Source of the DNA: Azolla caroliniana
Lineage: Eukaryota > Plantae > Polypodiophyta
Length of the DNA stretch: 56,212 nucleotides
NCBI GenBank assembly: GCA_043228905.1
Contig: JBHGNT010000191.1
Location: forward strand, 1-56,212
Reading direction: 5' to 3'
A program made the position numbers and the translations under genes. Position 1 is the first letter of the stretch. Each line of letters opens with the position of its first letter. The notes under the pieces are model-generated. The model saw only the letters and a list, made by a program, of their open reading frames with translations, was not told the origin of the DNA and ran no database searches. Of this stretch, positions 1 through 56,212 are shown piece after piece.

Positions 1-219
1 GACAACAAGAAGCAGTATCTTTGGTTGTGGTTATTCGTCAACATTGGTACGACAAATTGGTACACCAACAATTATAGTTTGGATAACTGGATACAATTTC
101 AAAAAATACGCATAGATTGCAGAATAATGGACATTGGTACGATGAGCATTGCACCATGTTTCTTTATTTGTAACAAAGGGCTAGAGTGGTACATTAACTA
201 TTTCATTTACTAAATGAAT

Positions 220-277
220 TCCATTGTAATCAAGTTGCCCCGGATCCTTGCTTTTTACCTGAGACGCCCGGGTACAA
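220..277 (+). pseudogene. Degenerate tRNA-Glu remnant 1 (present in every monomer)
   Basis: TCCATTGTAATCAAGTTGCCCCGGATCCTTGCTTTTTACCTGAGACGCCCGGGTACAA aligns to positions 1-58 of the intact tRNA; the 3' end is deleted. Confidence 0.8.
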
Positions 278-681
278 GTAGATCTATCATATATCATGAG
301 TTAATGTGGCATCGATAAAAGCCCTTGACATTATTCAATGTTAAAAATGAAAGTGTGTTAGAATCATCCTCAGTTTTTTTGTGGATGCTTGCAAACTTAA
401 TCCCATTATTCAATTAATGGGAGAGGTTTCAAATGAAATTTGACAAAACATTAGGTTGTTCGGGACAAGAAGAAACAATATATTTAGTCGTGGTTATTTG
501 TCAACATGGTTACGACAAATTAGTACACCGACAATTATAGTTTGGATAACTTCATAGAGTTTCCCGAAATACGCATAGATTGTAGAATAATGGTGAACTC
601 TCGATCAACATTGCGTCATAGTTCTTTATTTGAAGCAAAGCACTAGAATATTGTATTAACTAATTCATGTACTGAATCAAT

Positions 682-754
682 TCTATTGTAGTCTAGTTGG
701 TTCGGATCCTTGTCTTTTACACGAGACTCCGGGGTACAACAATAGGCATTGGGA
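682..754 (+). pseudogene. Degenerate full-length tRNA-Glu remnant 2 (present in every monomer)
   Basis: TCTATTGTAGTCTAGTTGGTTCGGATCC...GGGGTACAACAATAGGCATTGGGA is colinear with the intact tRNA; the anticodon arm and B box are disrupted. Confidence 0.8.
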
Positions 755-934
755 AAACTAGATACATCATAGATCACTATGTAATGTCGCATCGATAAAA
801 CCCCTTGAAATGATTAAATGTTAAAAACGAGAGCGTGTGAGAGTAATCCTCAGTTTCTTGTTGATGCTTGCGCAATATGTAAATATTATTTATTACTAAT
901 CTATGATTGCAATATATCTATACACAAGATAGGA

Positions 935-958
935 GCCATTGTAATGTAGTTGGTTAGG
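935..958 (+). pseudogene. 5' fragment of tRNA-Glu, remnant 3 (present in every monomer)
   Basis: GCCATTGTAAT(G/C)TAGTTGGTTAGG matches tRNA positions 1-24 and is preceded by a spacer resembling that of the intact gene. Confidence 0.7.
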
Positions 959-1196
959 GACAACATTATGTTGTTCGGGACAACAAGACGCAGTATATTT
1001 GGTTTTGGTTAGTCGTCAACATTGGTACGACAAGTTAGTACACCAACAATTATAGTTTGGATATCACAATACAATTTCAAGCAATACGCATAGATCGCAG
1101 ACTATTGGTCAACTGTCGATGAGCATTGCACCATGTTTCTATATTTGGAGTGAACCACTGGAATATTACATTAACTAAATCATTTACTAAATGAAT

Positions 1197-1226
1197 TCCA
1201 TTGTAGTCTAGCTGGTTCGGATCCTT
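1197..1226 (+). pseudogene. 5' fragment of tRNA-Glu, remnant 4 (present in every monomer)
   Basis: TCCATTGTAGTCTAGCTGGTTCGGATCC followed by a deletion into spacer sequence. Confidence 0.75.
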
Positions 1227-1297
1227 GTTTGCGCAATATATAAATATTATTTATTACGAATCAATGACCGTTACGATAAAAAGCGCACAACATGTGA

Positions 1298-1370
1298 TCC
1301 ATTGTAGTCTAGTTGGTTAGGATACTCGGCTCTCACCCGAGAGACCCGGGTTCAACTCCCGGCAATGGAA
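1298..1370 (+). tRNA. tRNA-Glu(CTC)
   Basis: 73-nt cloverleaf: acceptor stem TCCATTG/CAATGGA plus discriminator A; anticodon arm CTCGG-CT CTC AC-CCGAG; T arm CCGGG-TTCAACT-CCCGG. A and B boxes intact; resembles plant cytosolic tRNA-Glu. Confidence 0.97.
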
Positions 1371-1526
1371 ACGACAATATCATATATTAAATTTCGGACG
1401 CATATCATGTGTTAACTGTTTGACAACTCAAAAACTCAAGACCTAAAGTAGATGTTACGATAATGTGCAATTAAACAAAATAATCAATATTATGTTTGAA
1501 GGATTTGATGACGAACATTAGTTTGA

Positions 1527-1531
1527 TTTTT
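1527..1531 (+). terminator. First T>=4 tract downstream of the tRNA, candidate Pol III terminator (repeated in each monomer)
   Basis: TTTTT about 157 nt after the tRNA 3' end; only T3 runs occur before it. Confidence 0.45.
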
Positions 1532-2919
1532 CTCTCCCAACATCAATTTCTAAACTTAATCCCATTATTCGATTCATGGTAGAGGTTTCAAATGAAATTG
1601 GACAAAACATTATGTCGTTCGGGACAACAAGAAGCAGTATCTTTGGTTGTGGTTATTCGTCAACATTGGTACGACAAATTGGTACACCAACAATTATAGT
1701 TTGGATAACTGGATACAATTTCAAAAAATACGCATAGATTGCAGAATAATGGACATTGGTACGATGAGCATTGCACCATGTTTCTTTATTTGTAACAAAG
1801 GGCTAGAGTGGTACATTAACTATTTCATTTACTAAATGAATTCCATTGTAATCAAGTTGCCCCGGATCCTTGCTTTTTACCTGAGACGCCCGGGTACAAG
1901 TAGATCTATCATATATCATGAGTTAATGTGGCATCGATAAAAGCCCTTGACATTATTCAATGTTAAAAATGAAAGTGTGTTAGAATCATCCTCAGTTTTT
2001 TTGTGGATGCTTGCAAACTTAATCCCATTATTCAATTAATGGGAGAGGTTTCAAATGAAATTTGACAAAACATTAGGTTGTTCGGGACAAGAAGAAACAA
2101 TATATTTAGTCGTGGTTATTTGTCAACATGGTTACGACAAATTAGTACACCGACAATTATAGTTTGGATAACTTCATAGAGTTTCCCGAAATACGCATAG
2201 ATTGTAGAATAATGGTGAACTCTCGATCAACATTGCGTCATAGTTCTTTATTTGAAGCAAAGCACTAGAATATTGTATTAACTAATTCATGTACTGAATC
2301 AATTCTATTGTAGTCTAGTTGGTTCGGATCCTTGTCTTTTACACGAGACTCCGGGGTACAACAATAGGCATTGGGAAAACTAGATACATCATAGATCACT
2401 ATGTAATGTCGCATCGATAAAACCCCTTGAAATGATTAAATGTTAAAAACGAGAGCGTGTGAGAGTAATCCTCAGTTTCTTGTTGATGCTTGCGCAATAT
2501 GTAAATATTATTTATTACTAATCTATGATTGCAATATATCTATACACAAGATAGGAGCCATTGTAATGTAGTTGGTTAGGGACAACATTATGTTGTTCGG
2601 GACAACAAGACGCAGTATATTTGGTTTTGGTTAGTCGTCAACATTGGTACGACAAGTTAGTACACCAACAATTATAGTTTGGATATCACAATACAATTTC
2701 AAGCAATACGCATAGATCGCAGACTATTGGTCAACTGTCGATGAGCATTGCACCATGTTTCTATATTTGAAGTGAACCACTGGAATATTACATTAACTAA
2801 ATCATTTACTAAATGAATTCCATTGTAGTCTAGCTGGTTCGGATCCTTGTTTGCGCAATATATAAATATTATTTATTACGAATCAATGACCGTTACGATA
2901 AAAAGCGCACAACATGTGA

Positions 2920-2992
2920 TCCATTGTAGTCTAGTTGGTTAGGATACTCGGCTCTCACCCGAGAGACCCGGGTTCAACTCCCGGCAATGGAA
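2920..2992 (+). tRNA. tRNA-Glu(CTC)
   Basis: Same sequence as 1298-1370. Confidence 0.97.
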
Positions 2993-4541
2993 ACGACAAT
3001 ATCATATATTAAATTTCGGACGCATATCATGTGTTAACTGTTTGACAACTCAAAAACTCAAGACCTAAAGTAGATGTTACGATAATGTGCAATTAAACAA
3101 AATAATCAATATTATGTTTGAAGGATTTGATGACGAACATTAGTTTGATTTTTCTCTCCCAACATCAATTTCTAAACTTAATCCCATTATTCGATTCATG
3201 GTAGAGGTTTCAAATGAAATTGGACAAAACATTATGTCGTTCGGGACAACAAGAAGCAGTATCTTTGGTTGTGGTTATTCGTCAACATTGGTACGACAAA
3301 TTGGTACACCAACAATTATAGTTTGGATAACTGGATACAATTTCAAAAAATACGCATAGATTGCAGAATAATGGACATTGGTACGATGAGCATTGCACCA
3401 TGTTTCTTTATTTGTAACAAAGGGCTAGAGTGGTACATTAACTATTTCATTTACTAAATGAATTCCATTGTTATCAAGTTGCCCCGGATCCTTGCTTTTT
3501 ACCTGAGACGCCCGGGTACAAGTAGATCTATCATATATCATGAGTTAATGTGGCATCGATAAAAGCCCTTGACATTATTCAATGTTAAAAATGAAAGTGT
3601 GTTAGAATCATCCTCAGTTTTTTTGTGGATGCTTGCAAACTTAATCCCATTATTCAATTAATGGGAGAGGTTTCAAATGAAATTTGACAAAACATTAGGT
3701 TGTTCGGGACAAGAAGAAACAATATATTTAGTCGTGGTTATTTGTCAACATGGTTACGACAAATTAGTACACCGACAATTATAGTTTGGATAACTTCATA
3801 GAGTTTCCCGAAATACGCATAGATTGTAGAATAATGGTGAACTCTCGATCAACATTGCGTCATAGTTCTTTATTTGAAGCAAAGCACTAGAATATTGTAT
3901 TAACTAATTCATGTACTGAATCAATTCTATTGTAGTCTAGTTGGTTCGGATCCTTGTCTTTTACACGAGACTCCGGGGTACAACAATAGGCATTGGGAAA
4001 ACTAGATACATCATAGATCACTATGTAATGTCGCATCGATAAAACCCCTTGAAATGATTAAATGTTAAAAACGAGAGCGTGTGAGAGTAATCCTCAGTTT
4101 CTTGTTGATGCTTGCGCAATATGTAAATATTATTTATTACTAATCTATGATTGCAATATATCTATACACAAGATAGGAGCCATTGTAATGTAGTTGGTTA
4201 GGGACAACATTATGTTGTTCGGGACAACAAGACGCAGTATATTTGGTTTTGGTTAGTCGTCAACATTGGTACGACAAGTTAGTACACCAACAATTATAGT
4301 TTGGATATCACAATACAATTTCAAGCAATACGCATAGATCGCAGACTATTGGTCAACTGTCGATGAGCATTGCACCATGTTTCTATATTTGGAGTGAACC
4401 ACTGGAATATTACATTAACTAAATCATTTACTAAATGAATTCCATTGTAGTCTAGCTGGTTCGGATCCTTGTTTGCGCAATATATAAATATTATTTATTA
4501 CGAATCAATGACCGTTACGATAAAAAGCGCACAACATGTGA

Positions 4542-4614
4542 TCCATTGTAGTCTAGTTGGTTAGGATACTCGGCTCTCACCCGAGAGACCCGGGTTCAAC
4601 TCCCGGCAATGGAA
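4542..4614 (+). tRNA. tRNA-Glu(CTC)
   Basis: Same sequence as 1298-1370. Confidence 0.97.
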
Positions 4615-6163
4615 ACGACAATATCATATATTAAATTTCGGACGCATATCATGTGTTAACTGTTTGACAACTCAAAAACTCAAGACCTAAAGTAGATGTT
4701 ACGATAATGTGCAATTAAACAAAATAATCAATATTATGTTTGAAGGATTTGATGACGAACATTAGTTTGATTTTTCTCTCCCAACATCAATTTCTAAACT
4801 TAATCCCATTATTCGATTCATGGTAGAGGTTTCAAATGAAATTGGACAAAACATTATGTCGTTCGGGACAACAAGAAGCAGTATCTTTGGTTGTGGTTAT
4901 TCGTCAACATTGGTACGACAAATTGGTACACCAACAATTATAGTTTGGATAACTGGATACAATTTCAAAAAATACGCATAGATTGCAGAATAATGGACAT
5001 TGGTACGATGAGCATTGCACCATGTTTCTTTATTTGTAACAAAGGGCTAGAGTGGTACATTAACTATTTCATTTACTAAATGAATTCCATTGTAATCAAG
5101 TTGCCCCGGATCCTTGCTTTTTACCTGAGACGCCCGGGTACAAGTAGATCTATCATATATCATGAGTTAATGTGGCATCGATAAAAGCCCTTGACATTAT
5201 TCAATGTTAAAAATGAAAGTGTGTTAGAATCATCCTCAGTTTTTTTGTGGATGCTTGCAAACTTAATCCCATTATTCAATTAATGGGAGAGGTTTCAAAT
5301 GAAATTTGACAAAACATTAGGTTGTTCGGGACAAGAAGAAACAATATATTTAGTCGTGGTTATTTGTCAACATGGTTACGACAAATTAGTACACCGACAA
5401 TTATAGTTTGGATAACTTCATAGAGTTTCCCGAAATACGCATAGATTGTAGAATAATGGTGAACTCTCGATCAACATTGCGTCATAGTTCTTTATTTGAA
5501 GCAAAGCACTAGAATATTGTATTAACTAATTCATGTACTGAATCAATTCTATTGTAGTCTAGTTGGTTCGGATCCTTGTCTTTTACACGAGACTCCGGGG
5601 TACAACAATAGGCATTGGGAAAACTAGATACATCATAGATCACTATGTAATGTCGCATCGATAAAACCCCTTGAAATGATTAAATGTTAAAAACGAGAGC
5701 GTGTGAGAGTAATCCTCAGTTTCTTGTTGATGCTTGCGCAATATGTAAATATTATTTATTACTAATCTATGATTGCAATATATCTATACACAAGATAGGA
5801 GCCATTGTAATGTAGTTGGTTAGGGACAACATTATGTTGTTCGGGACAACAAGACGCAGTATATTTGGTTTTGGTTAGTCGTCAACATTGGTACGACAAG
5901 TTAGTACACCAACAATTATAGTTTGGATATCACAATACAATTTCAAGCAATACGCATAGATCGCAGACTATTGGTCAACTGTCGATGAGCATTGCACCAT
6001 GTTTCTATATTTGGAGTGAACCACTGGAATATTACATTAACTAAATCATTTACTAAATGAATTCCATTGTAGTCTAGCTGGTTCGGATCCTTGTTTGCGC
6101 AATATATAAATATTATTTATTACGAATCAATGACCGTTACGATAAAAAGCGCACAACATGTGA

Positions 6164-6236
6164 TCCATTGTAGTCTAGTTGGTTAGGATACTCGGCTCTC
6201 ACCCGAGAGACCCGGGTTCAACTCCCGGCAATGGAA
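6164..6236 (+). tRNA. tRNA-Glu(CTC)
   Basis: Same sequence as 1298-1370. Confidence 0.97.
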
Positions 6237-7785
6237 ACGACAATATCATATATTAAATTTCGGACGCATATCATGTGTTAACTGTTTGACAACTCAAAAA
6301 CTCAAGACCTAAAGTAGATGTTACGATAATGTGCAATTAAACAAAATAATCAATATTATGTTTGAAGGATTTGATGACGAACATTAGTTTGATTTTTCTC
6401 TCCCAACATCAATTTCTAAACTTAATCCCATTATTCGATTCATGGTAGAGGTTTCAAATGAAATTGGACAAAACATTATGTCGTTCGGGACAACAAGAAG
6501 CAGTATCTTTGGTTGTGGTTATTCGTCAACATTGGTACGACAAATTGGTACACCAACAATTATAGTTTGGATAACTGGATACAATTTCAAAAAATACGCA
6601 TAGATTGCAGAATAATGGACATTGGTACGATGAGCATTGCACCATGTTTCTTTATTTGTAACAAAGGGCTAGAGTGGTACATTAACTATTTCATTTACTA
6701 AATGAATTCCATTGTAATCAAGTTGCCCCGGATCCTTGCTTTTTACCTGAGACGCCCGGGTACAAGTAGATCTATCATATATCATGAGTTAATGTGGCAT
6801 CGATAAAAGCCCTTGACATTATTCAATGTTAAAAATGAAAGTGTGTTAGAATCATCCTCAGTTTTTTTGTGGATGCTTGCAAACTTAATCCCATTATTCA
6901 ATTAATGGGAGAGGTTTCAAATGAAATTTGACAAAACATTAGGTTGTTCGGGACAAGAAGAAACAATATATTTAGTCGTGGTTATTTGTCAACATGGTTA
7001 CGACAAATTAGTACACCGACAATTATAGTTTGGATAACTTCATAGAGTTTCCCGAAATACGCATAGATTGTAGAATAATGGTGAACTCTCGATCAACATT
7101 GCGTCATAGTTCTTTATTTGAAGCAAAGCACTAGAATATTGTATTAACTAATTCATGTACTGAATCAATTCTATTGTAGTCTAGTTGGTTCGGATCCTTG
7201 TCTTTTACACGAGACTCCGGGGTACAACAATAGGCATTGGGAAAACTAGATACATCATAGATCACTATGTAATGTCGCATCGATAAAACCCCTTGAAATG
7301 ATTAAATGTTAAAAACGAGAGCGTGTGAGAGTAATCCTCAGTTTCTTGTTGATGCTTGCGCAATATGTAAATATTATTTATTACTAATCTATGATTGCAA
7401 TATATCTATACACAAGATAGGAGCCATTGTAATGTAGTTGGTTAGGGACAACATTATGTTGTTCGGGACAACAAGACGCAGTATATTTGGTTTTGGTTAG
7501 TCGTCAACATTGGTACGACAAGTTAGTACACCAACAATTATAGTTTGGATATCACAATACAATTTCAAGCAATACGCATAGATCGCAGACTATTGGTCAA
7601 CTGTCGATGAGCATTGCACCATGTTTCTATATTTGAAGTGAACCACTGGAATATTACATTAACTAAATCATTTACTAAATGAATTCCATTGTAGTCTAGC
7701 TGGTTCGGATCCTTGTTTGCGCAATATATAAATATTATTTATTACGAATCAATGACCGTTACGATAAAAAGCGCACAACATGTGA

Positions 7786-7858
7786 TCCATTGTAGTCTAG
7801 TTGGTTAGGATACTCGGCTCTCACCCGAGAGACCCGGGTTCAACTCCCGGCAATGGAA
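7786..7858 (+). tRNA. tRNA-Glu(CTC)
   Basis: Same sequence as 1298-1370. Confidence 0.97.
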
Positions 7859-9407
7859 ACGACAATATCATATATTAAATTTCGGACGCATATCATGTGT
7901 TAACTGTTTGACAACTCAAAAACTCAAGACCTAAAGTAGATGTTACGATAATGTGCAATTAAACAAAATAATCAATATTATGTTTGAAGGATTTGATGAC
8001 GAACATTAGTTTGATTTTTCTCTCCCAACATCAATTTCTAAACTTAATCCCATTATTCGATTCATGGTAGAGGTTTCAAATGAAATTGGACAAAACATTA
8101 TGTCGTTCGGGACAACAAGAAGCAGTATCTTTGGTTGTGGTTATTCGTCAACATTGGTACGACAAATTGGTACACCAACAATTATAGTTTGGATAACTGG
8201 ATACAATTTCAAAAAATACGCATAGATTGCAGAATAATGGACATTGGTACGATGAGCATTGCACCATGTTTCTTTATTTGTAACAAAGGGCTAGAGTGGT
8301 ACATTAACTATTTCATTTACTAAATGAATTCCATTGTTATCAAGTTGCCCCGGATCCTTGCTTTTTACCTGAGACGCCCGGGTACAAGTAGATCTATCAT
8401 ATATCATGAGTTAATGTGGCATCGATAAAAGCCCTTGACATTATTCAATGTTAAAAATGAAAGTGTGTTAGAATCATCCTCAGTTTTTTTGTGGATGCTT
8501 GCAAACTTAATCCCATTATTCAATTAATGGGAGAGGTTTCAAATGAAATTTGACAAAACATTAGGTTGTTCGGGACAAGAAGAAACAATATATTTAGTCG
8601 TGGTTATTTGTCAACATGGTTACGACAAATTAGTACACCGACAATTATAGTTTGGATAACTTCATAGAGTTTCCCGAAATACGCATAGATTGTAGAATAA
8701 TGGTGAACTCTCGATCAACATTGCGTCATAGTTCTTTATTTGAAGCAAAGCACTAGAATATTGTATTAACTAATTCATGTACTGAATCAATTCTATTGTA
8801 GTCTAGTTGGTTCGGATCCTTGTCTTTTACACGAGACTCCGGGGTACAACAATAGGCATTGGGAAAACTAGATACATCATAGATCACTATGTAATGTCGC
8901 ATCGATAAAACCCCTTGAAATGATTAAATGTTAAAAACGAGAGCGTGTGAGAGTAATCCTCAGTTTCTTGTTGATGCTTGCGCAATATGTAAATATTATT
9001 TATTACTAATCTATGATTGCAATATATCTATACACAAGATAGGAGCCATTGTAATGTAGTTGGTTAGGGACAACATTATGTTGTTCGGGACAACAAGACG
9101 CAGTATATTTGGTTTTGGTTAGTCGTCAACATTGGTACGACAAGTTAGTACACCAACAATTATAGTTTGGATATCACAATACAATTTCAAGCAATACGCA
9201 TAGATCGCAGACTATTGGTCAACTGTCGATGAGCATTGCACCATGTTTCTATATTTGAAGTGAACCACTGGAATATTACATTAACTAAATCATTTACTAA
9301 ATGAATTCCATTGTAGTCTAGTTGGTTCGGATCCTTGTTTGCGCAATATATAAATATTATTTATTACGAATCAATGACCGTTACGATAAAAAGCGCACAA
9401 CATGTGA

Positions 9408-9480
9408 TCCATTGTAGTCTAGTTGGTTAGGATACTCGGCTCTCACCCGAGAGACCCGGGTTCAACTCCCGGCAATGGAA
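9408..9480 (+). tRNA. tRNA-Glu(CTC)
   Basis: Same sequence as 1298-1370. Confidence 0.97.
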
Positions 9481-11029
9481 ACGACAATATCATATATTAA
9501 ATTTCGGACGCATATCATGTGTTAACTGTTTGACAACTCAAAAACTCAAGACCTAAAGTAGATGTTACGATAATGTGCAATTAAACAAAATAATCAATAT
9601 TATGTTTGAAGGATTTGATGACGAACATTAGTTTGATTTTTCTCTCCCAACATCAATTTCTAAACTTAATCCCATTATTCGATTCATGGTAGAGGTTTCA
9701 AATGAAATTGGACAAAACATTATGTCGTTCGGGACAACAAGAAGCAGTATCTTTGGTTGTGGTTATTCGTCAACATTGGTACGACAAATTGGTACACCAA
9801 CAATTATAGTTTGGATAACTGGATACAATTTCAAAAAATACGCATAGATTGCAGAATAATGGACATTGGTACGATGAGCATTGCACCATGTTTCTTTATT
9901 TGTAACAAAGGGCTAGAGTGGTACATTAACTATTTCATTTACTAAATGAATTCCATTGTAATCAAGTTGCCCCGGATCCTTGCTTTTTACCTGAGACGCC
10001 CGGGTACAAGTAGATCTATCATATATCATGAGTTAATGTGGCATCGATAAAAGCCCTTGACATTATTCAATGTTAAAAATGAAAGTGTGTTAGAATCATC
10101 CTCAGTTTTTTTGTGGATGCTTGCAAACTTAATCCCATTATTCAATTAATGGGAGAGGTTTCAAATGAAATTTGACAAAACATTAGGTTGTTCGGGACAA
10201 GAAGAAACAATATATTTAGTCGTGGTTATTTGTCAACATGGTTACGACAAATTAGTACACCGACAATTATAGTTTGGATAACTTCATAGAGTTTCCCGAA
10301 ATACGCATAGATTGTAGAATAATGGTGAACTCTCGATCAACATTGCGTCATAGTTCTTTATTTGAAGCAAAGCACTAGAATATTGTATTAACTAATTCAT
10401 GTACTGAATCAATTCTATTGTAGTCTAGTTGGTTCGGATCCTTGTCTTTTACACGAGACTCCGGGGTACAACAATAGGCATTGGGAAAACTAGATACATC
10501 ATAGATCACTATGTAATGTCGCATCGATAAAACCCCTTGAAATGATTAAATGTTAAAAACGAGAGCGTGTGAGAGTAATCCTCAGTTTCTTGTTGATGCT
10601 TGCGCAATATGTAAATATTATTTATTACTAATCTATGATTGCAATATATCTATACACAAGATAGGAGCCATTGTAATCTAGTTGGTTAGGGACAACATTA
10701 TGTTGTTCGGGACAACAAGACGCAGTATATTTGGTTTTGGTTAGTCGTCAACATTGGTACGACAAGTTAGTACACCAACAATTATAGTTTGGATATCACA
10801 ATACAATTTCAAGCAATACGCATAGATCGCAGACTATTGGTCAACTGTCGATGAGCATTGCACCATGTTTCTATATTTGAAGTGAACCACTGGAATATTA
10901 CATTAACTAAATCATTTACTAAATGAATTCCATTGTAGTCTAGCCGGTTCGGATCCTTGTTTGCGCAATATATAAATATTATTTATTACGAATCAATGAT
11001 CGTTACCATAAAAAGCGCACAACATGTGA

Positions 11030-11102
11030 TCCATTGTAGTCTAGTTGGTTAGGATACTCGGCTCTCACCCGAGAGACCCGGGTTCAACTCCCGGCAATGG
11101 AA
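11030..11102 (+). tRNA. tRNA-Glu(CTC)
   Basis: Same sequence as 1298-1370. Confidence 0.97.
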
Positions 11103-12651: not shown

Positions 12652-12724
12652 TCCATTGTAGTCTAGTTGGTTAGGATACTCGGCTCTCACCCGAGAGACC
12701 CGGGTTCAACTCCCGGCAATGGAA
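12652..12724 (+). tRNA. tRNA-Glu(CTC)
   Basis: Same sequence as 1298-1370. Confidence 0.97.
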
Positions 12725-32239: not shown

Positions 32240-32242
32240 TCT

Positions 32243-37837: not shown

Positions 37838-37850
37838 AAGTGGGGGCGGA
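37838..37850 (+). other. Polypurine tract
   Basis: AAGTGGGGGCGGA abutting the 3' LTR. Confidence 0.8.
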
Positions 37851-43715: not shown

Positions 43716-43788
43716 TCCATTGTAGTCTAGTTGGTTAGGATACTCGGCTCTCACCCGAGAGACCCGGGTTCAACTCCCGGCAATGGAA
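43716..43788 (+). tRNA. tRNA-Glu(CTC)
   Basis: Same sequence as 1298-1370. Confidence 0.97.
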
Positions 43789-45333: not shown

Positions 45334-45406
45334 TCCATTGTAGTCTAGTTGGTTAGGATACTCGGCTCTCACCCGAGAGACCCGGGTTCAACTCCCGGCA
45401 ATGGAA
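45334..45406 (+). tRNA. tRNA-Glu(CTC)
   Basis: Same sequence as 1298-1370. Confidence 0.97.
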
Positions 45407-46951
45407 ACGACAATATCATATATTAAATTTCGGACGCATATCGTGTGTTAACTGTTTGACGACTCAAAAACTCAAGACCTAAAGTAGATGTTACGATAAT
45501 GTACAATTAACAAAATAGTCAATATTATGTTTGAAGGATTCATGACGAACATTACTTTGATTTTTCTCTCCTAACATCAATTTCTAAACTTAATCCCATT
45601 ATTCGATTAATGGTAGAGGTTTCAAATGAAATTGGACAAAACCTTATGTTGTTCGGGACAACAAGAAGCAGTATCTTTGGTTGTGGTTATTCGTCAACAT
45701 TGGTACGACAAATTGGTACACCAACAATTATAGTTTGGATAACTGGATACAATTTCAAAAAATACGCATAGATTGCAGAATAATGGTCAAATGTCGATGA
45801 GCATTGCACCATGTTTCTTTATTTGTAACAAAGGGCTAGAATGGTACATTAACTATTTCATTTACTAAATGAATTCCATTGTAATCAAGTTGCCTCGGAT
45901 CCTTGCTTTCTACCTGAGACGCCCGGGTACAAGTAGATCTATCATATATCATGAGTTAATGTGGCATCGATAAAAACCCTTGACATTACTAAATGTTAAA
46001 AATGAAAGTGTGTTAGAATAATCCTCAGTTTTTTGTTGATGCTTGCAAACTTAATCCCATTATTCAATTAATAGGAGAGGTTTCAAATGAAATTTGACAA
46101 AACATTAGGTTGTTCGGGACAAGAAGAAACAATATATTTAGTCGTGGTTATTTGTCAGCATGGTTACGACAAATTAGTACACCGACAATTATAGTTTGGA
46201 TAACTTCATAGAGTTTCCCGAAATACGCATAGATTGTAGAATAATGGTGAACTCTCGATCAACATTGCGTCATAGTTCTTTATTTGAAGCAAAGCACTAG
46301 AATATTATATTAACTAATTCATGTACTGAATCAATTCTATTGTAGTCTAGTTGGTTCGGATCCTTGTTTTTTACACGAGACTCCGGGGTACAACAATAGC
46401 CATTGGAAAAACTAGATACATCATAGATCATTATGTAATGTCACATCGATAAAACCCCTTGAAATGATTAAATGTTAAAAACGAGAGTGTGTGAGAGCAA
46501 TCCTCAATTTCTTGTTGATGCTTGCGCAATATGTAAATACTATTTACTACTAATCTATGATTGCAATATATCTATACACAAGATAGGAGCCATTGTAATC
46601 TAGTTGGTTAGGGACAACATTATGTTGTTCGGGACAACAAGAAGCAGTATATTTGGTTTTGGTTAATCGTCAACATTGGTACGACAAATTACTACACCAA
46701 CAATTATAGTTTGGATATCACAATACAATTTCAAGCAATACGCATAGATCGCAGACTATTGGTCAAATGTCGATGAGCATTGCACCATGTTTCTATATTT
46801 GAAGTAAACCACTAGAATATTACATTAACTAAATCATTTACTAAATGAATTCCATTGTAGTCTTGTTGGTTCGGATCCTTCTTTAAGCAATATATAAATA
46901 TTATTTATTACGAATCAATGATTGTTACGATAAAAAGCGCACAACATGTGA

Positions 46952-47024
46952 TCCATTGTAGTCTAGTTGGTTAGGATACTCGGCTCTCACCCGAGAGACC
47001 CGGGTTCAACTCCCGGCAATGGAA
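46952..47024 (+). tRNA. tRNA-Glu(CTC)
   Basis: Same sequence as 1298-1370. Confidence 0.97.
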
Positions 47025-48569
47025 ACGACAATATCATATATTAAATTTCGGACGCATATCATGTGTTAACTGTTTGACGACTCAAAAACTCAAGACCTAA
47101 AGTAGATGTTACGATAATGTACAATTAACAAAATAGTCAATATTATGTTTGAAGGATTCATGACGAACATTACTTTGATTTTTCTCTCCTAACATCAATT
47201 TCTAAACTTAATCCCATTATTCGATTAATGGTAGAGGTTTCAAATGAAATTGGACAAAACCTTATGTTGTTCGGGACAACAAGAAGCAGTATCTTTGGTT
47301 GTGGTTATTCGTCAACATTGGTACGACAAATTGGTACACCAACAATTATAGTTTGGATAACTGGATACAATTTCAAAAAATACGCATAGATTGCAGAATA
47401 ATGGTCAAATGTCGATGAGCATTGCACCATGTTTCTTTATTTGTAACAAAGGGCTAGAATGGTACATTAACTATTTCATTTACTAAATGAATTCCATTGT
47501 AATCAAGTTGCCTCGGATCCTTGCTTTCTACCTGAGACGCCCGGGTACAAGTAGATCTATCATATATCATGAGTTAATGTGGCATCGATAAAAACCCTTG
47601 ACATTACTAAATGTTAAAAATGAAAGTGTGTTAGAATAATCCTCAGTTTTTTGTTGATGCTTGCAAACTTAATCCCATTATTCAATTAATAGGAGAGGTT
47701 TCAAATGAAATTTGACAAAACATTAGGTTGTTCGGGACAAGAAGAAACAATATATTTAGTCGTGGTTATTTGTCAGCATGGTTACGACAAATTAGTACAC
47801 CGACAATTATAGTTTGGATAACTTCATAGAGTTTCCCGAAATACGCATAGATTGTAGAATAATGGTGAACTCTCGATCAACATTGCGTCATAGTTCTTTA
47901 TTTGAAGCAAAGCACTAGAATATTATATTAACTAATTCATGTACTGAATCAATTCTATTGTAGTCTAGTTGGTTCGGATCCTTGTTTTTTACACGAGACT
48001 CCGGGGTACAACAATAGCCATTGGAAAAACTAGATACATCATAGATCATTATGTAATGTCACATCGATAAAACCCCTTGAAATGATTAAATGTTAAAAAC
48101 GAGAGTGTGTGAGAGCAATCCTCAATTTCTTGTTGATGCTTGCGCAATATGTAAATACTATTTATTACTAATCTATGATTGCAATATATCTATACACAAG
48201 ATAGGAGCCATTGTAATCTAGTTGGTTAGGGACAACATTATGTTGTTCGGGACAACAAGAAGCAGTATATTTGGTTTTGGTTAATCGTCAACATTGGTAC
48301 GACAAATTACTACACCAACAATTATAGTTTGGATATCACAATACAATTTCAAGCAATACGCATAGATCGCAGACTATTGGTCAAATGTCGATGAGCATTG
48401 CACCATGTTTCTATATTTGAAGTAAACCACTAGAATATTACATTAACTAAATCATTTACTAAATGAATTCCATTGTAGTCTTGTTGGTTCGGATCCTTGT
48501 TTAAGCAATATATAAATATTATTTATTACGAATCAATGATTGTTACGATAAAAAGCGCACAACATGTGA

Positions 48570-48642
48570 TCCATTGTAGTCTAGTTGGTTAGGATACTCG
48601 GCTCTCACCCGAGAGACCCGGGTTCAACTCCCGGCAATGGAA
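48570..48642 (+). tRNA. tRNA-Glu(CTC)
   Basis: Same sequence as 1298-1370. Confidence 0.97.
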
Positions 48643-50187
48643 ACGACAATATCATATATTAAATTTCGGACGCATATCATGTGTTAACTGTTTGACGACT
48701 CAAAAACTCAAGACCTAAAGTAGATGTTACGATAATGTACAATTAACAAAATAGTCAATATTATGTTTGAAGGATTCATGACGAACATTACTTTGATTTT
48801 TCTCTCCTAACATCAATTTCTAAACTTAATCCCATTATTCGATTAATGGTAGAGGTTTCAAATGAAATTGGACAAAACCTTATGTTGTTCGGGACAACAA
48901 GAAGCAGTATCTTTGGTTGTGGTTATTCGTCAACATTGGTACGACAAATTGGTACACCAACAATTATAGTTTGGATAACTGGATACAATTTCAAAAAATA
49001 CGCATAGATTGCAGAATAATGGTCAAATGTCGATGAGCATTGCACCATGTTTCTTTATTTGTAACAAAGGGCTAGAATGGTACATTAACTATTTCATTTA
49101 CTAAATGAATTCCATTGTAATCAAGTTGCCTCGGATCCTTGCTTTCTACCTGAGACGCCCGGGTACAAGTAGATCTATCATATATCATGAGTTAATGTGG
49201 CATCGATAAAAACCCTTGACATTACTAAATGTTAAAAATGAAAGTGTGTTAGAATAATCCTCAGTTTTTTGTTGATGCTTGCAAACTTAATCCCATTATT
49301 CAATTAATAGGAGAGGTTTCAAATGAAATTTGACAAAACATTAGGTTGTTCGGGACAAGAAGAAACAATATATTTAGTCGTGGTTATTTGTCAGCATGGT
49401 TACGACAAATTAGTACACCGACAATTATAGTTTGGATAACTTCATAGAGTTTCCCGAAATACGCATAGATTGTAGAATAATGGTGAACTCTCGATCAACA
49501 TTGCGTCATAGTTCTTTATTTGAAGCAAAGCACTAGAATATTATATTAACTAATTCATGTACTGAATCAATTCTATTGTAGTCTAGTTGGTTCGGATCCT
49601 TGTTTTTTACACGAGACTCCGGGGTACAACAATAGCCATTGGAAAAACTAGATACATCATAGATCATTATGTAATGTCACATCGATAAAACCCCTTGAAA
49701 TGATTAAATGTTAAAAACGAGAGTGTGTGAGAGCAATCCTCAATTTCTTGTTGATGCTTGCGCAATATGTAAATACTATTTACTACTAATCTATGATTGC
49801 AATATATCTATACACAAGATAGGAGCCATTGTAATCTAGTTGGTTAGGGACAACATTATGTTGTTCGGGACAACAAGAAGCAGTATATTTGGTTTTGGTT
49901 AATCGTCAACATTGGTACGACAAATTACTACACCAACAATTATAGTTTGGATATCACAATACAATTTCAAGCAATACGCATAGATCGCAGACTATTGGTC
50001 AAATGTCGATGAGCATTGCACCATGTTTCTATATTTGAAGTAAACCACTAGAATATTACATTAACTAAATCATTTACTAAATGAATTCCATTGTAGTCTT
50101 GTTGGTTCGGATCCTTCTTTAAGCAATATATAAATATTATTTATTACGAATCAATGATTGTTACGATAAAAAGCGCACAACATGTGA

Positions 50188-50260
50188 TCCATTGTAGTCT
50201 AGTTGGTTAGGATACTCGGCTCTCACCCGAGAGACCCGGGTTCAACTCCCGGCAATGGAA
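50188..50260 (+). tRNA. tRNA-Glu(CTC)
   Basis: Same sequence as 1298-1370. Confidence 0.97.
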
Positions 50261-51805
50261 ACGACAATATCATATATTAAATTTCGGACGCATATCGTGT
50301 GTTAACTGTTTGACGACTCAAAAACTCAAGACCTAAAGTAGATGTTACGATAATGTACAATTAACAAAATAGTCAATATTATGTTTGAAGGATTCATGAC
50401 GAACATTACTTTGATTTTTCTCTCCTAACATCAATTTCTAAACTTAATCCCATTATTCGATTAATGGTAGAGGTTTCAAATGAAATTGGACAAAACCTTA
50501 TGTTGTTCGGGACAACAAGAAGCAGTATCTTTGGTTGTGGTTATTCGTCAACATTGGTACGACAAATTGGTACACCAACAATTATAGTTTGGATAACTGG
50601 ATACAATTTCAAAAAATACGCATAGATTGCAGAATAATGGTCAAATGTCGATGAGCATTGCACCATGTTTCTTTATTTGTAACAAAGGGCTAGAATGGTA
50701 CATTAACTATTTCATTTACTAAATGAATTCCATTGTAATCAAGTTGCCTCGGATCCTTGCTTTCTACCTGTGACGCCCGGGTACAAGTAGATCTATCATA
50801 TATCATGAGTTAATGTGGCATCGATAAAAGCCCTTGACATTACTAAATGTTAAAAATGAAAGTGTGTTAGAATAATCCTCAGTTTTTTGTTGATGCTTGC
50901 AAACTTAATCCCATTATTCAATTAATAGGAGAGGTTTCAAATGAAATTTGACAAAACATTAGGTTGTTCGGGACAAGAAGAAACAATATATTTAGTCGTG
51001 GTTATTTGTCAGCATGGTTACGACAAATTAGTACACCGACAATTATAGTTTGGATAACTTCATAGAGTTTCCCGAAATACGCATAGATTGTAGAATAATG
51101 GTGAACTCTCGATCAACATTGCGTCATAGTTCTTTATTTGAAGAAAAGCACTAGAATATTATATTAACTAATTCATGTACTGAATCAATTCTATTGTAGT
51201 CTAGTTGGTTCGGATCCTTGTTTTTTACACGAGACTCCGGGGTACAACAATAGCCATTGGAAAAACTAGATACATCATAGATCATTATGTAATGTCACAT
51301 CGATAAAACCCCTTGAAATGATTAAATGTTAAAAACGAGAGTGTGTGAGAGCAATCCTCAGTTTCTTGTTGATGCTTGCGCAATATGTAAATACTATTTA
51401 TTACTAATCTATGATTGCAATATATCTATACACAAGATAGGAGCCATTGTAATCTAGTTGGTTAGGGACAACATTATGTTGTTCGGGACAACAAGAAGCA
51501 GTATCTTTGGTTTTGGTTAATCGTCAACATTGGTACGACAAATTAGTACACCAACAATTATAGTTTGGATATCACAATACAATTTCAAGCAATACGCATA
51601 GATGGCAGACTATTGGTCAACTGTCGATGAGCATTGCACCATGTTTCTATATTTGAAGTAAACCACTAGAATATTACATTAACTAAATCATTTACTAAAT
51701 GAATTCCATTGTAGTCTTGTTGGTTCGGATCCTTGTTTAAGCAATATATAAATATTATTTATTACGAATCAATGATTGTTACGATAAAAAGCGCACAACA
51801 TGTGA

Positions 51806-51878
51806 TCCATTGTAGTCTAGTTGGTTAGGATACTCGGCTCTCACCCGAGAGACCCGGGTTCAACTCCCGGCAATGGAA
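51806..51878 (+). tRNA. tRNA-Glu(CTC)
   Basis: Same sequence as 1298-1370. Confidence 0.97.
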
Positions 51879-53423
51879 ACGACAATATCATATATTAAAT
51901 TTCGGACGCATATCATGTGTTAACTGTTTGACGACTCAAAAACTCAAGACCTAAAGTAGATGTTACGATAATGTACAATTAACAACATAGTCAATATTAT
52001 GTTTGAAGGATTCATGACGAACATTACTTTGATTTTTCTCTCCTAACATCAATTTCTAAACTTAATCCCATTATTCGATTAATGGTAGAGGTTTCAAATG
52101 AAATTGGACAAAACCTTATGTTGTTCGGGACAACAAGAAGCAGTATCTTTGGTTGTGGTTATTCGTCAACATTGGTACGACAAATTGGTACACCAACAAT
52201 TATAGTTTGGATAACTGGATACAATTTCAAAAAATACGCATAGATTGCAGAATAATGGTCAAATGTCGATGAGCATTGCACCATGTTTCTTTATTTGTAA
52301 CAAAGGGCTAGAATGGTACATTAACTATTTCATTTACTAAATGAATTCCATTGTAATCAAGTTGCCTCGGATCCTTGCTTTCTACCTGAGACGCCCGGGT
52401 ACAAGTAGATCTATCATATATCATGAGTTAATGTGGCATCGATAAAAGCCCTTGACATTACTAAATGTTAAAAATGAAAGTGTGTTAGAATAATCCTCAG
52501 TTTTTTGTTGATGCTTGCAAACTTAATCCCATTATTCAATTAATAGGAGAGGTTTCAAATGAAATTTGACAAAACATTAGGTTGTTCGGGACAAGAAGAA
52601 ACAATATATTTAGTCGTGGTTATTTGTCAGCATGGTTACGACAAATTAGTACACCGACAATTATAGTTTGGATAACTTCATAGAGTTTCCCGAAATACGC
52701 ATAGATTGTAGAATAATGGTGAACTCTCGATCAACATTGCGTCATAGTTCTTTATTTGAAGCAAAGCACTAGAATATTATATTAACTAATTCATGTACTG
52801 AATCAATTCTATTGTAGTCTAGTTGGTTCGGATCCTTGTTTTTTACACGAGACTCCGGGGTACAACAATAGCCATTGGAAAAACTAGATACATCATAGAT
52901 CATTATGTAATGTCACATCGATAAAACCCCTTGAAATGATTAAATGTTAAAAACGAGAGTGTGTGAGAGCAATCCTCAATTTCTTGTTGATGCTTGCGCA
53001 ATATGTAAATACTATTTATTACTAATCTATGATTGCAATATATCTATACACAAGATAGGAGCCATTGTAATCTAGTTGGTTAGGGACAACATTATGTTGT
53101 TCGGGACAACAAGAAGCAGTATCTTTGGTTTTGGTTAATCGTCAACATTGGTACGACAAATTAGTACACCAACAATTATAGTTTGGATATCACAATACAA
53201 TTTCAAGCAATACGCATAGATGGCAGACTATTGGTCAACTGTCGATGAGCATTGCACCATGTTTCTATATTTGAAGTAAACCACTAGAATATTACATTAA
53301 CTAAATCATTTACTAAATGAATTCCATTGTAGTCTTGTTGGTTCGGATCCTTGTTTAAGCAATATATAAATATTATTTATTACGAATCAATGATTGTTAC
53401 GATAAAAAGCGCACAACATGTGA

Positions 53424-53496
53424 TCCATTGTAGTCTAGTTGGTTAGGATACTCGGCTCTCACGCGAGAGACCCGGGTTCAACTCCCGGCAATGGAA
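53424..53496 (+). tRNA. tRNA-Glu(CTC), anticodon-stem variant
   Basis: CTCTCACGCGAG: a C>G change at nt 40 gives a G:G mismatch closing the anticodon stem. Confidence 0.85.
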
Positions 53497-55041
53497 ACGA
53501 CAATATCATATATTAAATTTCGGACGCATATCATGTGTTAACTGTTTGACGACTCAAAAACTCAAGACCTAAAGTAGATGTTACGATAATGTACAATTAA
53601 CAACATAGTCAATATTATGTTTGAAGGATTCATGACGAACATTACTTTGATTTTTCTCTCCTAACATCAATTTCTAAACTTAATCCCATTATTCGATTAA
53701 TGGTAGAGGTTTCAAATGAAATTGGACAAAACCTTATGTTGTTCGGGACAACAAGAAGCAGTATCTTTGGTTGTGGTTATTCGTCAACATTGGTACGACA
53801 AATTGGTACACCAACAATTATAGTTTGGATAACTGGATACAATTTCAAAAAATACGCATAGATTGCAGAATAATGGTCAAATGTCGATGAGCATTGCACC
53901 ATGTTTCTTTATTTGTAACAAAGGGCTAGAATGGTACATTAACTATTTCATTTACTAAATGAATTCCATTGTAATCAAGTTGCCTCGGATCCTTGCTTTC
54001 TACCTGAGACGCCCGGGTACAAGTAGATCTATCATATATCATGAGTTAATGTGGCATCGATAAAAGCCCTTGACATTACTAAATGTTAAAAATGAAAGTG
54101 TGTTAGAATAATCCTCAGTTTTTTGTTGATGCTTGCAAACTTAATCCCATTATTCAATTAATAGGAGAGGTTTCAAATGAAATTTGACAAAACATTAGGT
54201 TGTTCGGGACAAGAAGAAACAATATATTTAGTCGTGGTTATTTGTCAGCATGGTTACGACAAATTAGTACACCGACAATTATAGTTTGGATAACTTCATA
54301 GAGTTTCCCGAAATACGCATAGATTGTAGAATAATGGTGAACTCTCGATCAACATTGCGTCATAGTTCTTTATTTGAAGCAAAGCACTAGAATATTATAT
54401 TAACTAATTCATGTACTGAATCAATTCTATTGTAGTCTAGTTGGTTCGGATCCTTGTTTTTTACACGAGACTCCGGGGTACAACAATAGCCATTGGAAAA
54501 ACTAGATACATCATAGATCATTATGTAATGTCACATCGATAAAACCCCTTGAAATGATTAAATGTTAAAAACGAGAGTGTGTGAGAGCAATCCTCAGTTT
54601 CTTGTTGATGCTTGCGCAATATGTAAATACTATTTATTACTAATCTATGATTGCAATATATCTATACACAAGATAGGAGCCATTGTAATCTAGTTGGTTA
54701 GGGACAACATTATGTTGTTCGGGACAACAAGAAGCAGTATATTTGGTTTTGGTTAATCGTCAACATTGGTACGACAAATTAGTACACCAACAATTATAGT
54801 TTGGATATCACAATACAATTTCAAGCAATACGCATAGATGGCAGACTATTGGTCAACTGTCGATGAGCATTGCACCATGTTTCTATATTTGAAGTAAACC
54901 ACTAGAATATTACATTAACTAAATCATTTACTAAATGAATTCCATTGTAGTCTTGTTGGTTCGGATCCTTCTTTAAGCAATATATAAATATTATTTATTA
55001 CGAATCAATGATTGTTACGATAAAAAGCGCACAACATGTGA

Positions 55042-55114
55042 TCCATTGTAGTCTAGTTGGTTAGGATACTCGGCTCTCACCCGAGAGACCCGGGTTCAAC
55101 TCCCGGCAATGGAA
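55042..55114 (+). tRNA. tRNA-Glu(CTC)
   Basis: Same sequence as 1298-1370. Confidence 0.97.
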
Positions 55115-56212
55115 ACGACAATATCATATATTAAATTTCGGACGCATATCATGTGTTAACTGTTTGACGACTCAAAAACTCAAGACCTAAAGTAGATGTT
55201 ACGATAATGTACAATTAACAAAATAGTCAATATTATGTTTGAAGGATTCATGACGAACATTACTTTGATTTTTCTCTCCTAACATCAATTTCTAAACTTA
55301 ATCCCATTATTCGATTAATGGTAGAGGTTTCAAATGAAATTGGACAAAACCTTATGTTGTTCGGGACAACAAGAAGCAGTATCTTTGGTTGTGGTTATTC
55401 GTCAACATTGGTACGACAAATTGGTACACCAACAATTATAGTTTGGATAACTGGATACAATTTCAAAAAATACGCATAGATTGCAGAATAATGGTCAAAT
55501 GTCGATGAGCATTGCACCATGTTTCTTTATTTGTAACAAAGGGCTAGAATGGTACATTAACTATTTCATTTACTAAATGAATTCCATTGTAATCAAGTTG
55601 CCTCGGATCCTTGCTTTCTACCTGAGACGCCCGGGTACAAGTAGATCTATCATATATCATGAGTTAATGTGGCATCGATAAAAACCCTTGACATTACTAA
55701 ATGTTAAAAATGAAAGTGTGTTAGAATAATCCTCAGTTTTTTGTTGATGCTTGCAAACTTAATCCCATTATTCAATTAATAGGAGAGGTTTCAAATGAAA
55801 TTTGACAAAACATTAGGTTGTTCGGGACAAGAAGAAACAATATATTTAGTCGTGGTTATTTGTCAGCATGGTTACGACAAATTAGTACACCGACAATTAT
55901 AGTTTGGATAACTTCATAGAGTTTCCCGAAATACGCATAGATTGTAGAATAATGGTGAACTCTCGATCAACATTGCGTCATAGTTCTTTATTTGAAGCAA
56001 AGCACTAGAATATTATATTAACTAATTCATGTACTGAATCAATTCTATTGTAGTCTAGTTGGTTCGGATCCTTGTTTTTTACACGAGACTCCGGGGTACA
56101 ACAATAGCCATTGGAAAAACTAGATACATCATAGATCATTATGTAATGTCACATCGATAAAACCCCTTGAAATGATTAAATGTTAAAAACGAGAGTGTGT
56201 GAGAGCAATCCT

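What the first reader, a model, noticed from the sequence alone, without database searches (positions are those of the whole stretch)
1..56212. Macrosatellite built from a tRNA-Glu(CTC) gene: 23 intact or near-intact copies in homogenised 1.6-kb repeats
Seen: each monomer holds exactly one perfect 73-nt cloverleaf with intact A/B boxes; 21 copies appear identical and two have a single substitution. The array extends past both window ends. Known: tandem tRNA clusters exist in Arabidopsis (Ser-Tyr-Tyr, Pro) and as STR-linked arrays in Entamoeba, but I do not recall a single-isoacceptor Glu array with rDNA-like homogeneity in a plant. Inference: it could be a dosage-amplified tRNA locus, or a structural chromosome domain (TFIIIC/condensin-binding, centromeric or heterochromatic) that uses Pol III genes as its repeat unit.
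Basis: partly seen in the sequence, partly recalled or inferred. Interest (0 to 1): 0.8.

Follow-up and report, generated by a model that had tools for sequence, protein, structure and literature searches.

The report
Satellite repeat carrying tRNA-Glu genes
This stretch of plant DNA, likely from a fern, holds about two dozen near-identical 1.6-kb repeats, each with one intact glutamate tRNA gene and four decayed copies of it; it is a real array of a kind already known from maize and Arabidopsis, and it likely spread by recombination rather than being kept for extra tRNA output.

Summary
The array is real but is not one uninterrupted macrosatellite, and its kind is known. ARAGORN finds 25 tRNA-Glu(CTC) genes: 21 identical, 2 with one change, 2 with four. 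They lie in two sub-arrays (1622-bp and 1618-bp monomers, 51 consensus differences, none in the tRNA), split by 17 kb of retrotransposons, helicase exons and an older repeat relic. Each monomer is a higher-order repeat of an older ~0.8-kb unit and carries one intact and four decayed tRNA heads. The tRNA is unchanged along the amplified lineage (0 of 72 sites against 20 of 306 flank sites), yet these copies lack the nearby T4 terminator that the older copies have. Public runs hold the monomer and its tandem junction (4 of 4 laid) at roughly 100 times the depth of the helicase flank. Two other organisms hold the same tRNA at very high depth with unrelated flanks. Best reading: a recombination-amplified, probably mostly surplus tRNA gene cluster, like maize Ile and Arabidopsis Ser-Tyr-Tyr arrays. 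Expression, methylation and centromere role were not testable. The scan's earlier notes hold no look-alike on other DNA.

The parts
1..21876 (+). Left sub-array, about 13.5 monomers of 1622-1623 bp, 13 tRNA-Glu(CTC) genes; runs off the window start
1298..2919 (+). Reference monomer: units of 544, 462, 253, 262 and 101 bp, each opening with a tRNA-Glu-derived head
1298..1370 (+). Intact tRNA-Glu(CTC) gene, major type (21 identical copies); A box at gene positions 8-19, B box at 52-62
1527..1531 (+). First run of four or more T downstream of the gene (T5 at +157); the likely Pol III terminator if transcribed
   Evidence: terminator role inferred
1842..1899 (+). Decayed head A (72% identical to the gene over 58 bases, B box lost)
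2304..2376 (+). Decayed head B (18 of 73 differences, A box kept, B box and T stem broken)
2557..2580 (+). Truncated head C (5' 24 bases only, joined by deletion to spacer)
2819..2847 (+). Truncated head D (5' 29 bases only)
19142..19214 (+). tRNA-Glu copy with G15A in the A box
21877..25788 (+). Degraded Ty1/copia element: begins inside the internal region at an abrupt junction with the array; RT fragments; purine tract and a single putative LTR at 25350-25788
   Evidence: LTR limits inferred from TG/CA ends only
25847..27094 (+). Last three exons of a DED1/RH37-like DEAD-box helicase gene (about 25847-26025, 26209-26317, 26594-27094), open frames; first ~390 residues not in the window
29092..30509 (+). 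Second copia stub (primer site, gag and protease-region fragments), cut off at the repeat relic
30510..31587 (+). Relic of the older two-unit repeat: decayed head (30553), tRNA gene (30809), short decayed head (31352), 5' part of a decayed tRNA gene (31545)
30809..30881 (+). Older tRNA-Glu copy, four substitutions, one T-stem pair broken, T4 run at +22
31588..38503 (+). Full-length Ty3/gypsy element (LTRs 31588-32239 and 37851-38503, 98.3% identical; 4-bp target duplication ACGA) inserted in the anticodon arm of a decayed tRNA-Glu copy; coding region has stops
38504..38861 (+). 3' part of the split tRNA copy and its older spacer (T4 run kept)
38862..38934 (+). Edge tRNA-Glu copy of the right sub-array, B box destroyed, two T-stem pairs broken
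38862..56212 (+). Right sub-array, about 10.7 monomers of 1618 bp, 11 tRNA-Glu(CTC) genes; runs off the window end
53424..53496 (+). tRNA-Glu copy with C40G, breaking the closing anticodon-stem pair

Best explanation
This is a tandem tRNA-Glu(CTC) gene cluster whose 1.6-kb unit carries one intact gene and four decayed heads; it likely arose from an older ~0.8-kb two-head repeat, likely spread and homogenised by unequal crossing-over and gene conversion, and is likely mostly surplus rather than a locus kept for tRNA output. Shown: the unit anatomy, the older relic beside it, block-wise shared variants, and a tRNA unchanged while its spacer drifts. Inferred: three old units fused, two intact heads were lost or cut by deletions, and the fused unit was amplified in the last few million years. 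The one intact head is likely retained by weak selection on occasional expression or by conversion from the larger tRNA-Glu pool. An intact Pol III promoter may also promote the recombination by pausing replication forks, as tRNA genes do in yeast. Silencing in most tissues is inferred by analogy with Arabidopsis and was not tested.
For: Unit anatomy and the older head/spacer alternation at 30510-31587. Spacer modules inside one monomer differ by 14.5-19.6% while whole monomers differ by under 1% within a sub-array. Variants are shared by adjacent or alternating monomers, and the last three right monomers carry left-type letters at several sites. tRNA conservation on the amplified lineage: 0 of 72 sites against 20 of 306 flank sites (binomial P 0.008; Fisher P 0.013), while the two stranded copies changed at the flank rate (4 of 72 against 19 of 306; 9 of 72 against 29 of 306). 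Against output tuning: four of five heads are dead; the amplified copies have T3 where both older copies have T4 at +22, so the first T run is at +155 to +157; two damaging single changes persist. Clustered tRNA genes in Arabidopsis are methylated and mostly silent (PMC7544208, passages). TFIIIB at tRNA genes impedes forks in yeast (10.1101/2020.01.29.925644, abstract).
Against: The conservation signal fits a useful, expressed locus equally well. Simple pairwise tests were not significant (0 of 73 between sub-arrays, P 0.10; current against older copy, P 0.10-0.14); only the polarised test was, and it rests on four sequences and was run after the pairwise tests failed. Three of the four changes in the older copy at 30809 keep base pairing, so that copy may not be decaying neutrally. 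The monomer shows no CpG depletion (observed/expected 0.94-0.99), so long-term CG methylation is not evident; CHG is under-represented (0.45-0.55). Non-angiosperm land plants often lack a T4 within 25 bases (PMC13437025 section 7), which weakens the terminator argument. The Arabidopsis Ser-Tyr-Tyr cluster is silent in most tissues yet functional in root cap cells (PMC12308677, abstract).
Confidence: 0.6

Rival explanations
1. The array is an active dosage locus: most intact copies are transcribed, with a long 3' trailer trimmed by RNase Z, and selection for more tRNA-Glu(CTC), always or in one tissue, keeps it.
For: Perfect cloverleaf, A and B boxes, an upstream CAA and an AT-rich stretch. tRNA unchanged on the amplified lineage. 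The same tRNA, with one site differing at 10% or more, dominates the tRNA-Glu depth in two other organisms whose flanks do not align at 80%. Precedent in the Arabidopsis cluster.
Against: Four of five heads per unit are dead, the proximal T4 is missing in the amplified copies, and damaged singletons persist. Amplifying one isoacceptor about a hundredfold is hard to match to translational demand (inference).
Confidence: 0.2
2. The unit is a tRNA-derived mobile element (a SINE, or a Helenus/Cassandra-like TRIM) that formed tandem arrays, and the heads are its promoters.
For: tRNA-headed units of 250-550 bp; decayed heads B and D keep the A-box end (1 difference in 21 bases). tRNA-bearing TRIMs with tandem arrays and SINE-derived satellites are described (PMC10886601 passages; PMC10702118 abstract). 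One other organism shows A-rich sequence after its tRNA copies, at low agreement.
Against: No purine run of 10 or more before a TG on either strand, no poly(A) tail (longest A run 6) and no ORF over 53 codons from ATG in the monomer. The amplified head is a complete tRNA, whereas Helenus heads are reported not to fold as tRNAs. Decayed heads have lost the B box.
Confidence: 0.09
3. The array is a structural chromosome domain (centromeric, insulator or TFIIIC/condensin platform) that uses Pol III genes as its repeat unit.
For: Regular spacing of intact A/B boxes over at least 39 kb. A human tRNA tandem repeat is proposed as a boundary element (PMC4041453, abstract).
Against: Depth suggests only about 100 monomers, on the order of 0.1-0.2 Mb (rough). 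No short-period satellite in the arrays. Plant tRNA genes are reported to be excluded from centromeric regions (PMC13437025, summary passage). The spacer is not found in two other organisms that hold the tRNA. The array abuts helicase exons.
Confidence: 0.08
4. The array is an assembly expansion of a few real copies.
For: Some neighbouring monomers are identical. No listed contig spans more than a part of a monomer, so the copy order in the window is not independently confirmed.
Against: Monomer held by 8 runs of 3 studies at 0.53-0.65 of its words; tandem junction in 4 of 4 runs; summed depth 83-114 times the helicase flank; structured, shared variants between copies.
Confidence: 0.03

Closest known systems
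Maize chromosome 2 tRNA-Ile(AAT) and chromosome 4 tRNA-Ala(AGC) homoclusters (PMC13437025, Table S3 parts and section 10 read)
   Same: One isoacceptor, one strand, very regular spacing, tens of copies, split into sub-blocks, uniform flanks.
   Different: Maize spacing is about 472 bp (Ile) and 372 bp (Ala); here 1.6 kb, with four decayed heads per unit, isotype Glu, and a likely fern host.
Arabidopsis Ser-Tyr-Tyr cluster (PMC7544208 passages; PMC12308677 abstract and section 7 read)
   Same: About 40 kb of repeated multi-head units, a homogeneous core with more pseudogenes at the flanks, growth by tandem duplication.
   Different: Two isotypes and three mostly intact genes per unit there; one isotype and one intact head in five here. 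Silencing and root-cap reactivation are shown there and untested here.
Ceratodon purpureus identical tRNA-Ile and tRNA-Cys tandem clusters (PMC12652284, passages read)
   Same: Clusters of 14-26 identical tRNA genes in a non-seed plant.
   Different: Spacing under 1 kb; Glu appears there only as the TTC isoacceptor in a mixed Val-Glu-Phe unit.
Human 1q23.3 tRNA variable-number tandem repeat (PMC4041453, abstract and outline read)
   Same: Large-unit tandem repeat with 9-43 copies in which the tRNA genes are conserved between species and the spacer is not.
   Different: 7.3-kb GC-rich unit with several tRNA types and a conserved CTCF site; here an AT-rich unit with one tRNA type and no conserved spacer motif found.
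Entamoeba tRNA arrays (PMC2652664, search listing only)
   Same: tRNA genes as the unit of long tandem arrays.
   Different: Entamoeba spacers are short tandem repeats; none are found in these spacers.
Very large tRNA gene sets of water ferns (Azolla filiculoides, 7,848 nuclear tRNA genes; PMC13437025 Table S1 row; PMC13578239 section 6 read)
   Same: A fern lineage with strongly amplified tRNA genes.
   Different: The window's species is not identified here, and those papers ascribe the count to genome duplication, repeats and perhaps fast growth without describing the repeat units in the parts I read.

Membership tests
Plant tRNA gene homocluster (PMC13437025) | At least 10 tRNA genes within 50 kb | tested here: met
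   25 genes in 54 kb
Plant tRNA gene homocluster (PMC13437025) | At least 5 tRNA genes within 5 kb (the paper's main threshold) | tested here: not met
   At 1.62-kb spacing five intact genes span about 6.6 kb; it qualifies only under the wider threshold
Plant tRNA gene homocluster (PMC13437025) | Single isotype in tandem | tested here: met
   25 of 25 are Glu(CTC) on the + strand
Plant tRNA gene homocluster (PMC13437025) | Uniform flanks among clustered copies | tested here: met
Silenced tRNA cluster of the Arabidopsis type (PMC7544208) | High DNA methylation and transcriptional repression | not testable with these tools
   No methylation data or raw RNA reads; composition is equivocal
Functional type 2 Pol III tRNA gene | Cloverleaf with intact A and B boxes | tested here: met
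   no broken pair in the major copy
Functional type 2 Pol III tRNA gene | Run of at least four T within about 25 bases downstream | tested here: not met
   First run at +155 or +157 in the 3 amplified-type copies checked; +22 in the older copy
Functional type 2 Pol III tRNA gene | Transcribed and processed | not testable with these tools
   Only assembled contigs were available
Higher-order repeat satellite | Diverged subunits within a unit, near-identical whole units | tested here: met
   Subunit modules 14.5-19.6% apart; whole units under 1% apart within a sub-array
tRNA-bearing TRIM (Helenus, PMC10886601) | LTRs with a primer site and polypurine tract between them | tested here: not met
   No purine tract before a TG on either strand; CA-TGG hits coincide with tRNA stems or spacer repeats and were not compared with a tRNA library
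SINE-derived satellite (PMC10702118) | Dispersed parent SINE with A-rich tail and target duplications | tested here: inconclusive
   No A-rich tail in the monomer; dispersed copies could not be sought because no genome is held
Centromeric satellite | CENH3 occupancy and one large array per chromosome | not testable with these tools
   No genome or chromatin data

The most novel reading that the evidence does not exclude
In this plant lineage the tRNA-Glu(CTC) gene is a self-amplifying satellite seed. It has been expanded again and again with unrelated spacers (at least two flank families in the window's organism, others in two further organisms), because an intact Pol III gene promotes the recombination that copies it. 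Units that lose the gene decay into spacer. This could explain the extreme tRNA gene counts of some ferns without genome duplication or selection for fast growth.
Probability: 0.2. Interest if true: 0.7.

Novelty: new variant of a known kind. Interest (0 to 1): 0.4.

Why it matters
Plant tRNA clusters are known mainly from flowering plants and a moss, and whether they are adaptive hubs or by-products is stated as unresolved (PMC13578239, passage). This locus preserves its own history: the older unit, the fused unit, two diverged sub-arrays and a datable retrotransposon. It also carries array-specific marks (a ~155-base trailer, diagnostic spacer letters) that make expression directly testable. 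It warns that tRNA gene counts in ferns may be inflated by satellite-like arrays that a 5-genes-in-5-kb filter would not remove. As it stands it extends a known kind; it is not a new system.

Tried and rejected
No genome is held for this window, so copy number, position and dispersed copies were not measured directly. No RNA holder was listed for the monomer, and one possible RNA run laid nothing; by the tools' own terms this says nothing on expression. Rfam found no second RNA family in the monomer or trailer beyond a weak overlap with the tRNA itself, so a tRNA-snoRNA dicistron is unsupported. Tandem Repeats Finder found no short-period repeat in the arrays (longest period 500). Pairwise tests of tRNA conservation were not significant. 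Methylation-type changes gave no clear signal: of 47 left/right substitutions, 11 were C-to-T type at CG or CHG sites. tRNA targeting by the gypsy element was considered and not adopted: its target ACGA fits the NCGN preference reported for Phygy elements (PMC6317226, passage), and 4 of 49 CG sites in a monomer lie in the tRNA. The helicase tree placed the window among fern rows with no well-supported clade. A look-up of the tRNA core in a published plant tRNA table failed because the supplement could not be read, so the tRNA was not compared with named plant tRNA-Glu genes. The junctions between array and copia were not seen bridged in the truncated tables. Earlier scan notes: none by sequence, none nearby, none on tRNA arrays by words. 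Ten paper searches listed no paper whose title or abstract describes a fern tRNA-Glu satellite.
Full report
Observation. ARAGORN and Rfam each find 25 tRNA genes, all Glu(CTC) on the + strand. Twenty-one are identical, two carry one substitution and two carry four. The major copy forms all 21 cloverleaf pairs and has intact A and B boxes. The window begins and ends inside a monomer. It is not one continuous array: repeats occupy 1-21876 (about 13.5 monomers of 1622-1623 bp) and 38862-56212 (about 10.7 monomers of 1618 bp), 70% of the window. Monomers differ at 0-11 columns on the left (12 compared) and 0-12 on the right (9 compared, up to 18 with the edge copy), but at 51-61 between sides. The two majority sequences differ at 51 columns, 47 substitutions and 4 single-base gaps, none in the tRNA.

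The monomer is a higher-order repeat. It splits into five units of 544, 462, 253, 262 and 101 bp, each opening with a tRNA-Glu-derived head: one intact, two decayed, two truncated. A 235-bp spacer module occurs three times per monomer at 14.5-19.6% divergence. A relic at 30510-31587 alternates a 256-bp unit with a decayed head and a 543-bp unit with a tRNA gene. I infer that this ~0.8-kb pair is the ancestral repeat, and that three pairs fused, lost one intact head and truncated another by deletion, and were then amplified as one block. Variants are shared by adjacent or alternating monomers, and the last three right monomers carry left-type letters at several sites, the pattern expected from unequal exchange and conversion.

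The interruption, 21877-38861, holds a degraded copia element that starts abruptly inside its internal region, the last three exons of a DED1/RH37-like helicase, a second copia stub, the relic, and a full-length gypsy element. The gypsy element sits in the anticodon arm of a decayed tRNA-Glu copy, with a 4-bp duplication ACGA and LTRs differing at 10 of 651 sites plus one gap. With two recalled plant substitution rates, this dates the insertion to about 0.6-1.6 million years and the left/right split to about 1-3 million years. Its primer site resembles the tRNA-Trp 3' end (recalled, not checked by a call). The helicase is 90% identical over 105 columns to a Ceratopteris protein and nearest to Adiantum rows, without a well-supported clade. 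The host is therefore a land plant, likely a fern; the species is not identified.

Reality and size. Fifteen of 20 listed runs hold the monomer or part of it; 8 hold over half of its words, all from organism A, in 3 studies; a run labelled organism B holds 0.39. One of these may be the source of the window. In 4 of 4 runs laid, a contig joins the end of a monomer to its start. Summed contig depth over the monomer is 105, 83, 85 and 114 times that over the helicase region, and the single junction contig alone is 8-15 times. The tool states that summed depth is not a copy number, and the helicase region may not be single-copy, so 'on the order of 100 monomers' is rough. An assembly expansion is unlikely.

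Constraint on the tRNA. Pairwise tests are not significant: 0 of 73 between sub-arrays (P 0.10) and 4 of 73 against 50 of 467 for the older copy (P 0.10). A four-way comparison (left, right, older copy, split copy) assigns no change to the tRNA along the branches leading to the amplified units, against 20 of 306 flank sites (P 0.008 binomial; 0.013 Fisher). The two stranded copies changed at the flank rate, though three of the four changes at 30809 keep pairing. This test was chosen after the pairwise ones and uses four sequences. In two other organisms (runs X16, X17) only the tRNA is covered at 80% likeness (4 and 5 of 30 bins), at summed depths of 182,496 and 155,529, with one site differing at 10% or more in each; their flanks are shared among many contigs but unlike this spacer. 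The longest contigs listed there have depths mostly of 11-58, which suggests far larger amplification, but I have no single-copy control for those runs, do not know their relation to organism A, and cannot tell tandem from dispersed copies. In organism A the tRNA bin is about 6 times the median spacer depth, and loose ends show a second flank family.

Signs of relaxed function. Four of five heads are dead. The amplified copies have T3 where both older copies have T4 at about +22, so the first terminator-like run lies at +155 or +157. Two damaging single changes persist. These are weak arguments: non-angiosperm land plants often lack a proximal T4 (PMC13437025 section 7), and long trailers can be trimmed (established knowledge). 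CpG is not depleted in the monomer (0.94-0.99) while CHG is (0.45-0.55). Expression could not be assessed.

Mechanism. I commit to a recombination-amplified, probably mostly surplus tRNA gene cluster (0.6). Shown: anatomy, relic, variant pattern, tRNA conservation, presence in independent runs. Inferred: the fusion history, unequal exchange, the reason the intact head is kept, and silencing. Rivals: active dosage locus (0.2), tRNA-derived mobile element (0.09), structural or centromeric domain (0.08), assembly artefact (0.03).

Comparison with what is known. Single-isoacceptor tandem clusters are described in plants: 39 maize tRNA-Ile genes at about 472-bp spacing and 42 tRNA-Ala genes (PMC13437025; I read sections 6, 7 and 10, passages, a Table S1 row and 3 of 23 parts of Table S3), and 14-26 identical genes in a moss (PMC12652284, passages). 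In the summary rows I read, Glu occurs in land plants only in mixed clusters (sunflower, Marchantia), and no fern row appears. The Arabidopsis Ser-Tyr-Tyr cluster is a repeated multi-gene unit with pseudogenes, methylated and silent in most tissues but active in root cap cells (PMC7544208 passages; PMC12308677 abstract and section 7). Azolla filiculoides is credited with over 7,500 tRNA genes (PMC13578239 passages and section 6). I recall, unverified, that the main supplementary text of PMC6786969 mentions tRNA-Glu genes clustered on a few scaffolds of a water-fern genome; that PDF was too large to read, and the main-text passages I saw do not say so. If the recollection is right, clustered fern tRNA-Glu genes are already in print, though I found no description of the unit. 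The supplement of PMC12652284 was also unreadable.

Novelty and verdict. The kind is known. What appears new within my ten searches is a Glu-only array in a likely fern, a higher-order unit with one live and four dead heads, its ancestral form preserved beside it, and signs that the same tRNA was amplified with other spacers in other organisms. I rate it a new variant of a known kind, interest 0.4. The boldest reading, that this tRNA gene repeatedly seeds its own satellites, has probability about 0.2 and would merit 0.7.

Noticed in passing
window 25847-27094: The last three exons of a DED1/RH37-like helicase have open frames, but the first ~390 residues are not in the window. Either the gene is truncated, or the copia element and the whole left sub-array lie inside a very large intron.
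   Followed up: partly
window 31588-38503: Gypsy element with a 4-bp NCGN target duplication, as reported for Phygy elements, and a purine-rich tract before the 3' LTR, unlike the tract-less elements in earlier notes on this genome. Its family is abundant (about 750-1,400 times the helicase depth in two runs).
   Followed up: partly
window 31545-31587 and 38504-38537: The gypsy element split a decayed tRNA-Glu copy in its anticodon arm; one event, compatible with a CG-site preference.
   Followed up: yes
window 50188-55041: The last three full right monomers carry left-type letters at several sites, suggesting exchange across the interruption or a gradient along the array.
   Followed up: partly
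window 2304-2324 and 2819-2839 (and every monomer): Decayed heads B and D keep the first 21 bases with the A box almost unchanged (1 difference) while the rest has decayed; unexplained, possibly conversion from the intact gene.
   Followed up: partly
runs X16 and X17 laid on window 1298-1370: Two other organisms hold nearly the same tRNA-Glu at very high summed depth with their own recurring flanks; one shows A-rich downstream sequence at low agreement.
   Followed up: partly
run X8 laid on window 1298-1372: Loose ends show a second recurring flank family for the same tRNA in the window's organism, and the older repeat relic has high depth, so related repeats exist elsewhere in the genome.
   Followed up: no
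window 21876/21877 and 30509/30510: Both junctions between repeat and copia DNA fall inside the elements' internal regions with no LTR or target duplication, so they look like deletion or recombination joints, not insertions.
   Followed up: partly
window 25158-25232, 26132-26186, 28821-28847: Short local tandem repeats (24, 26 and 6 bp) in the copia tail, a helicase intron and downstream DNA.
   Followed up: no
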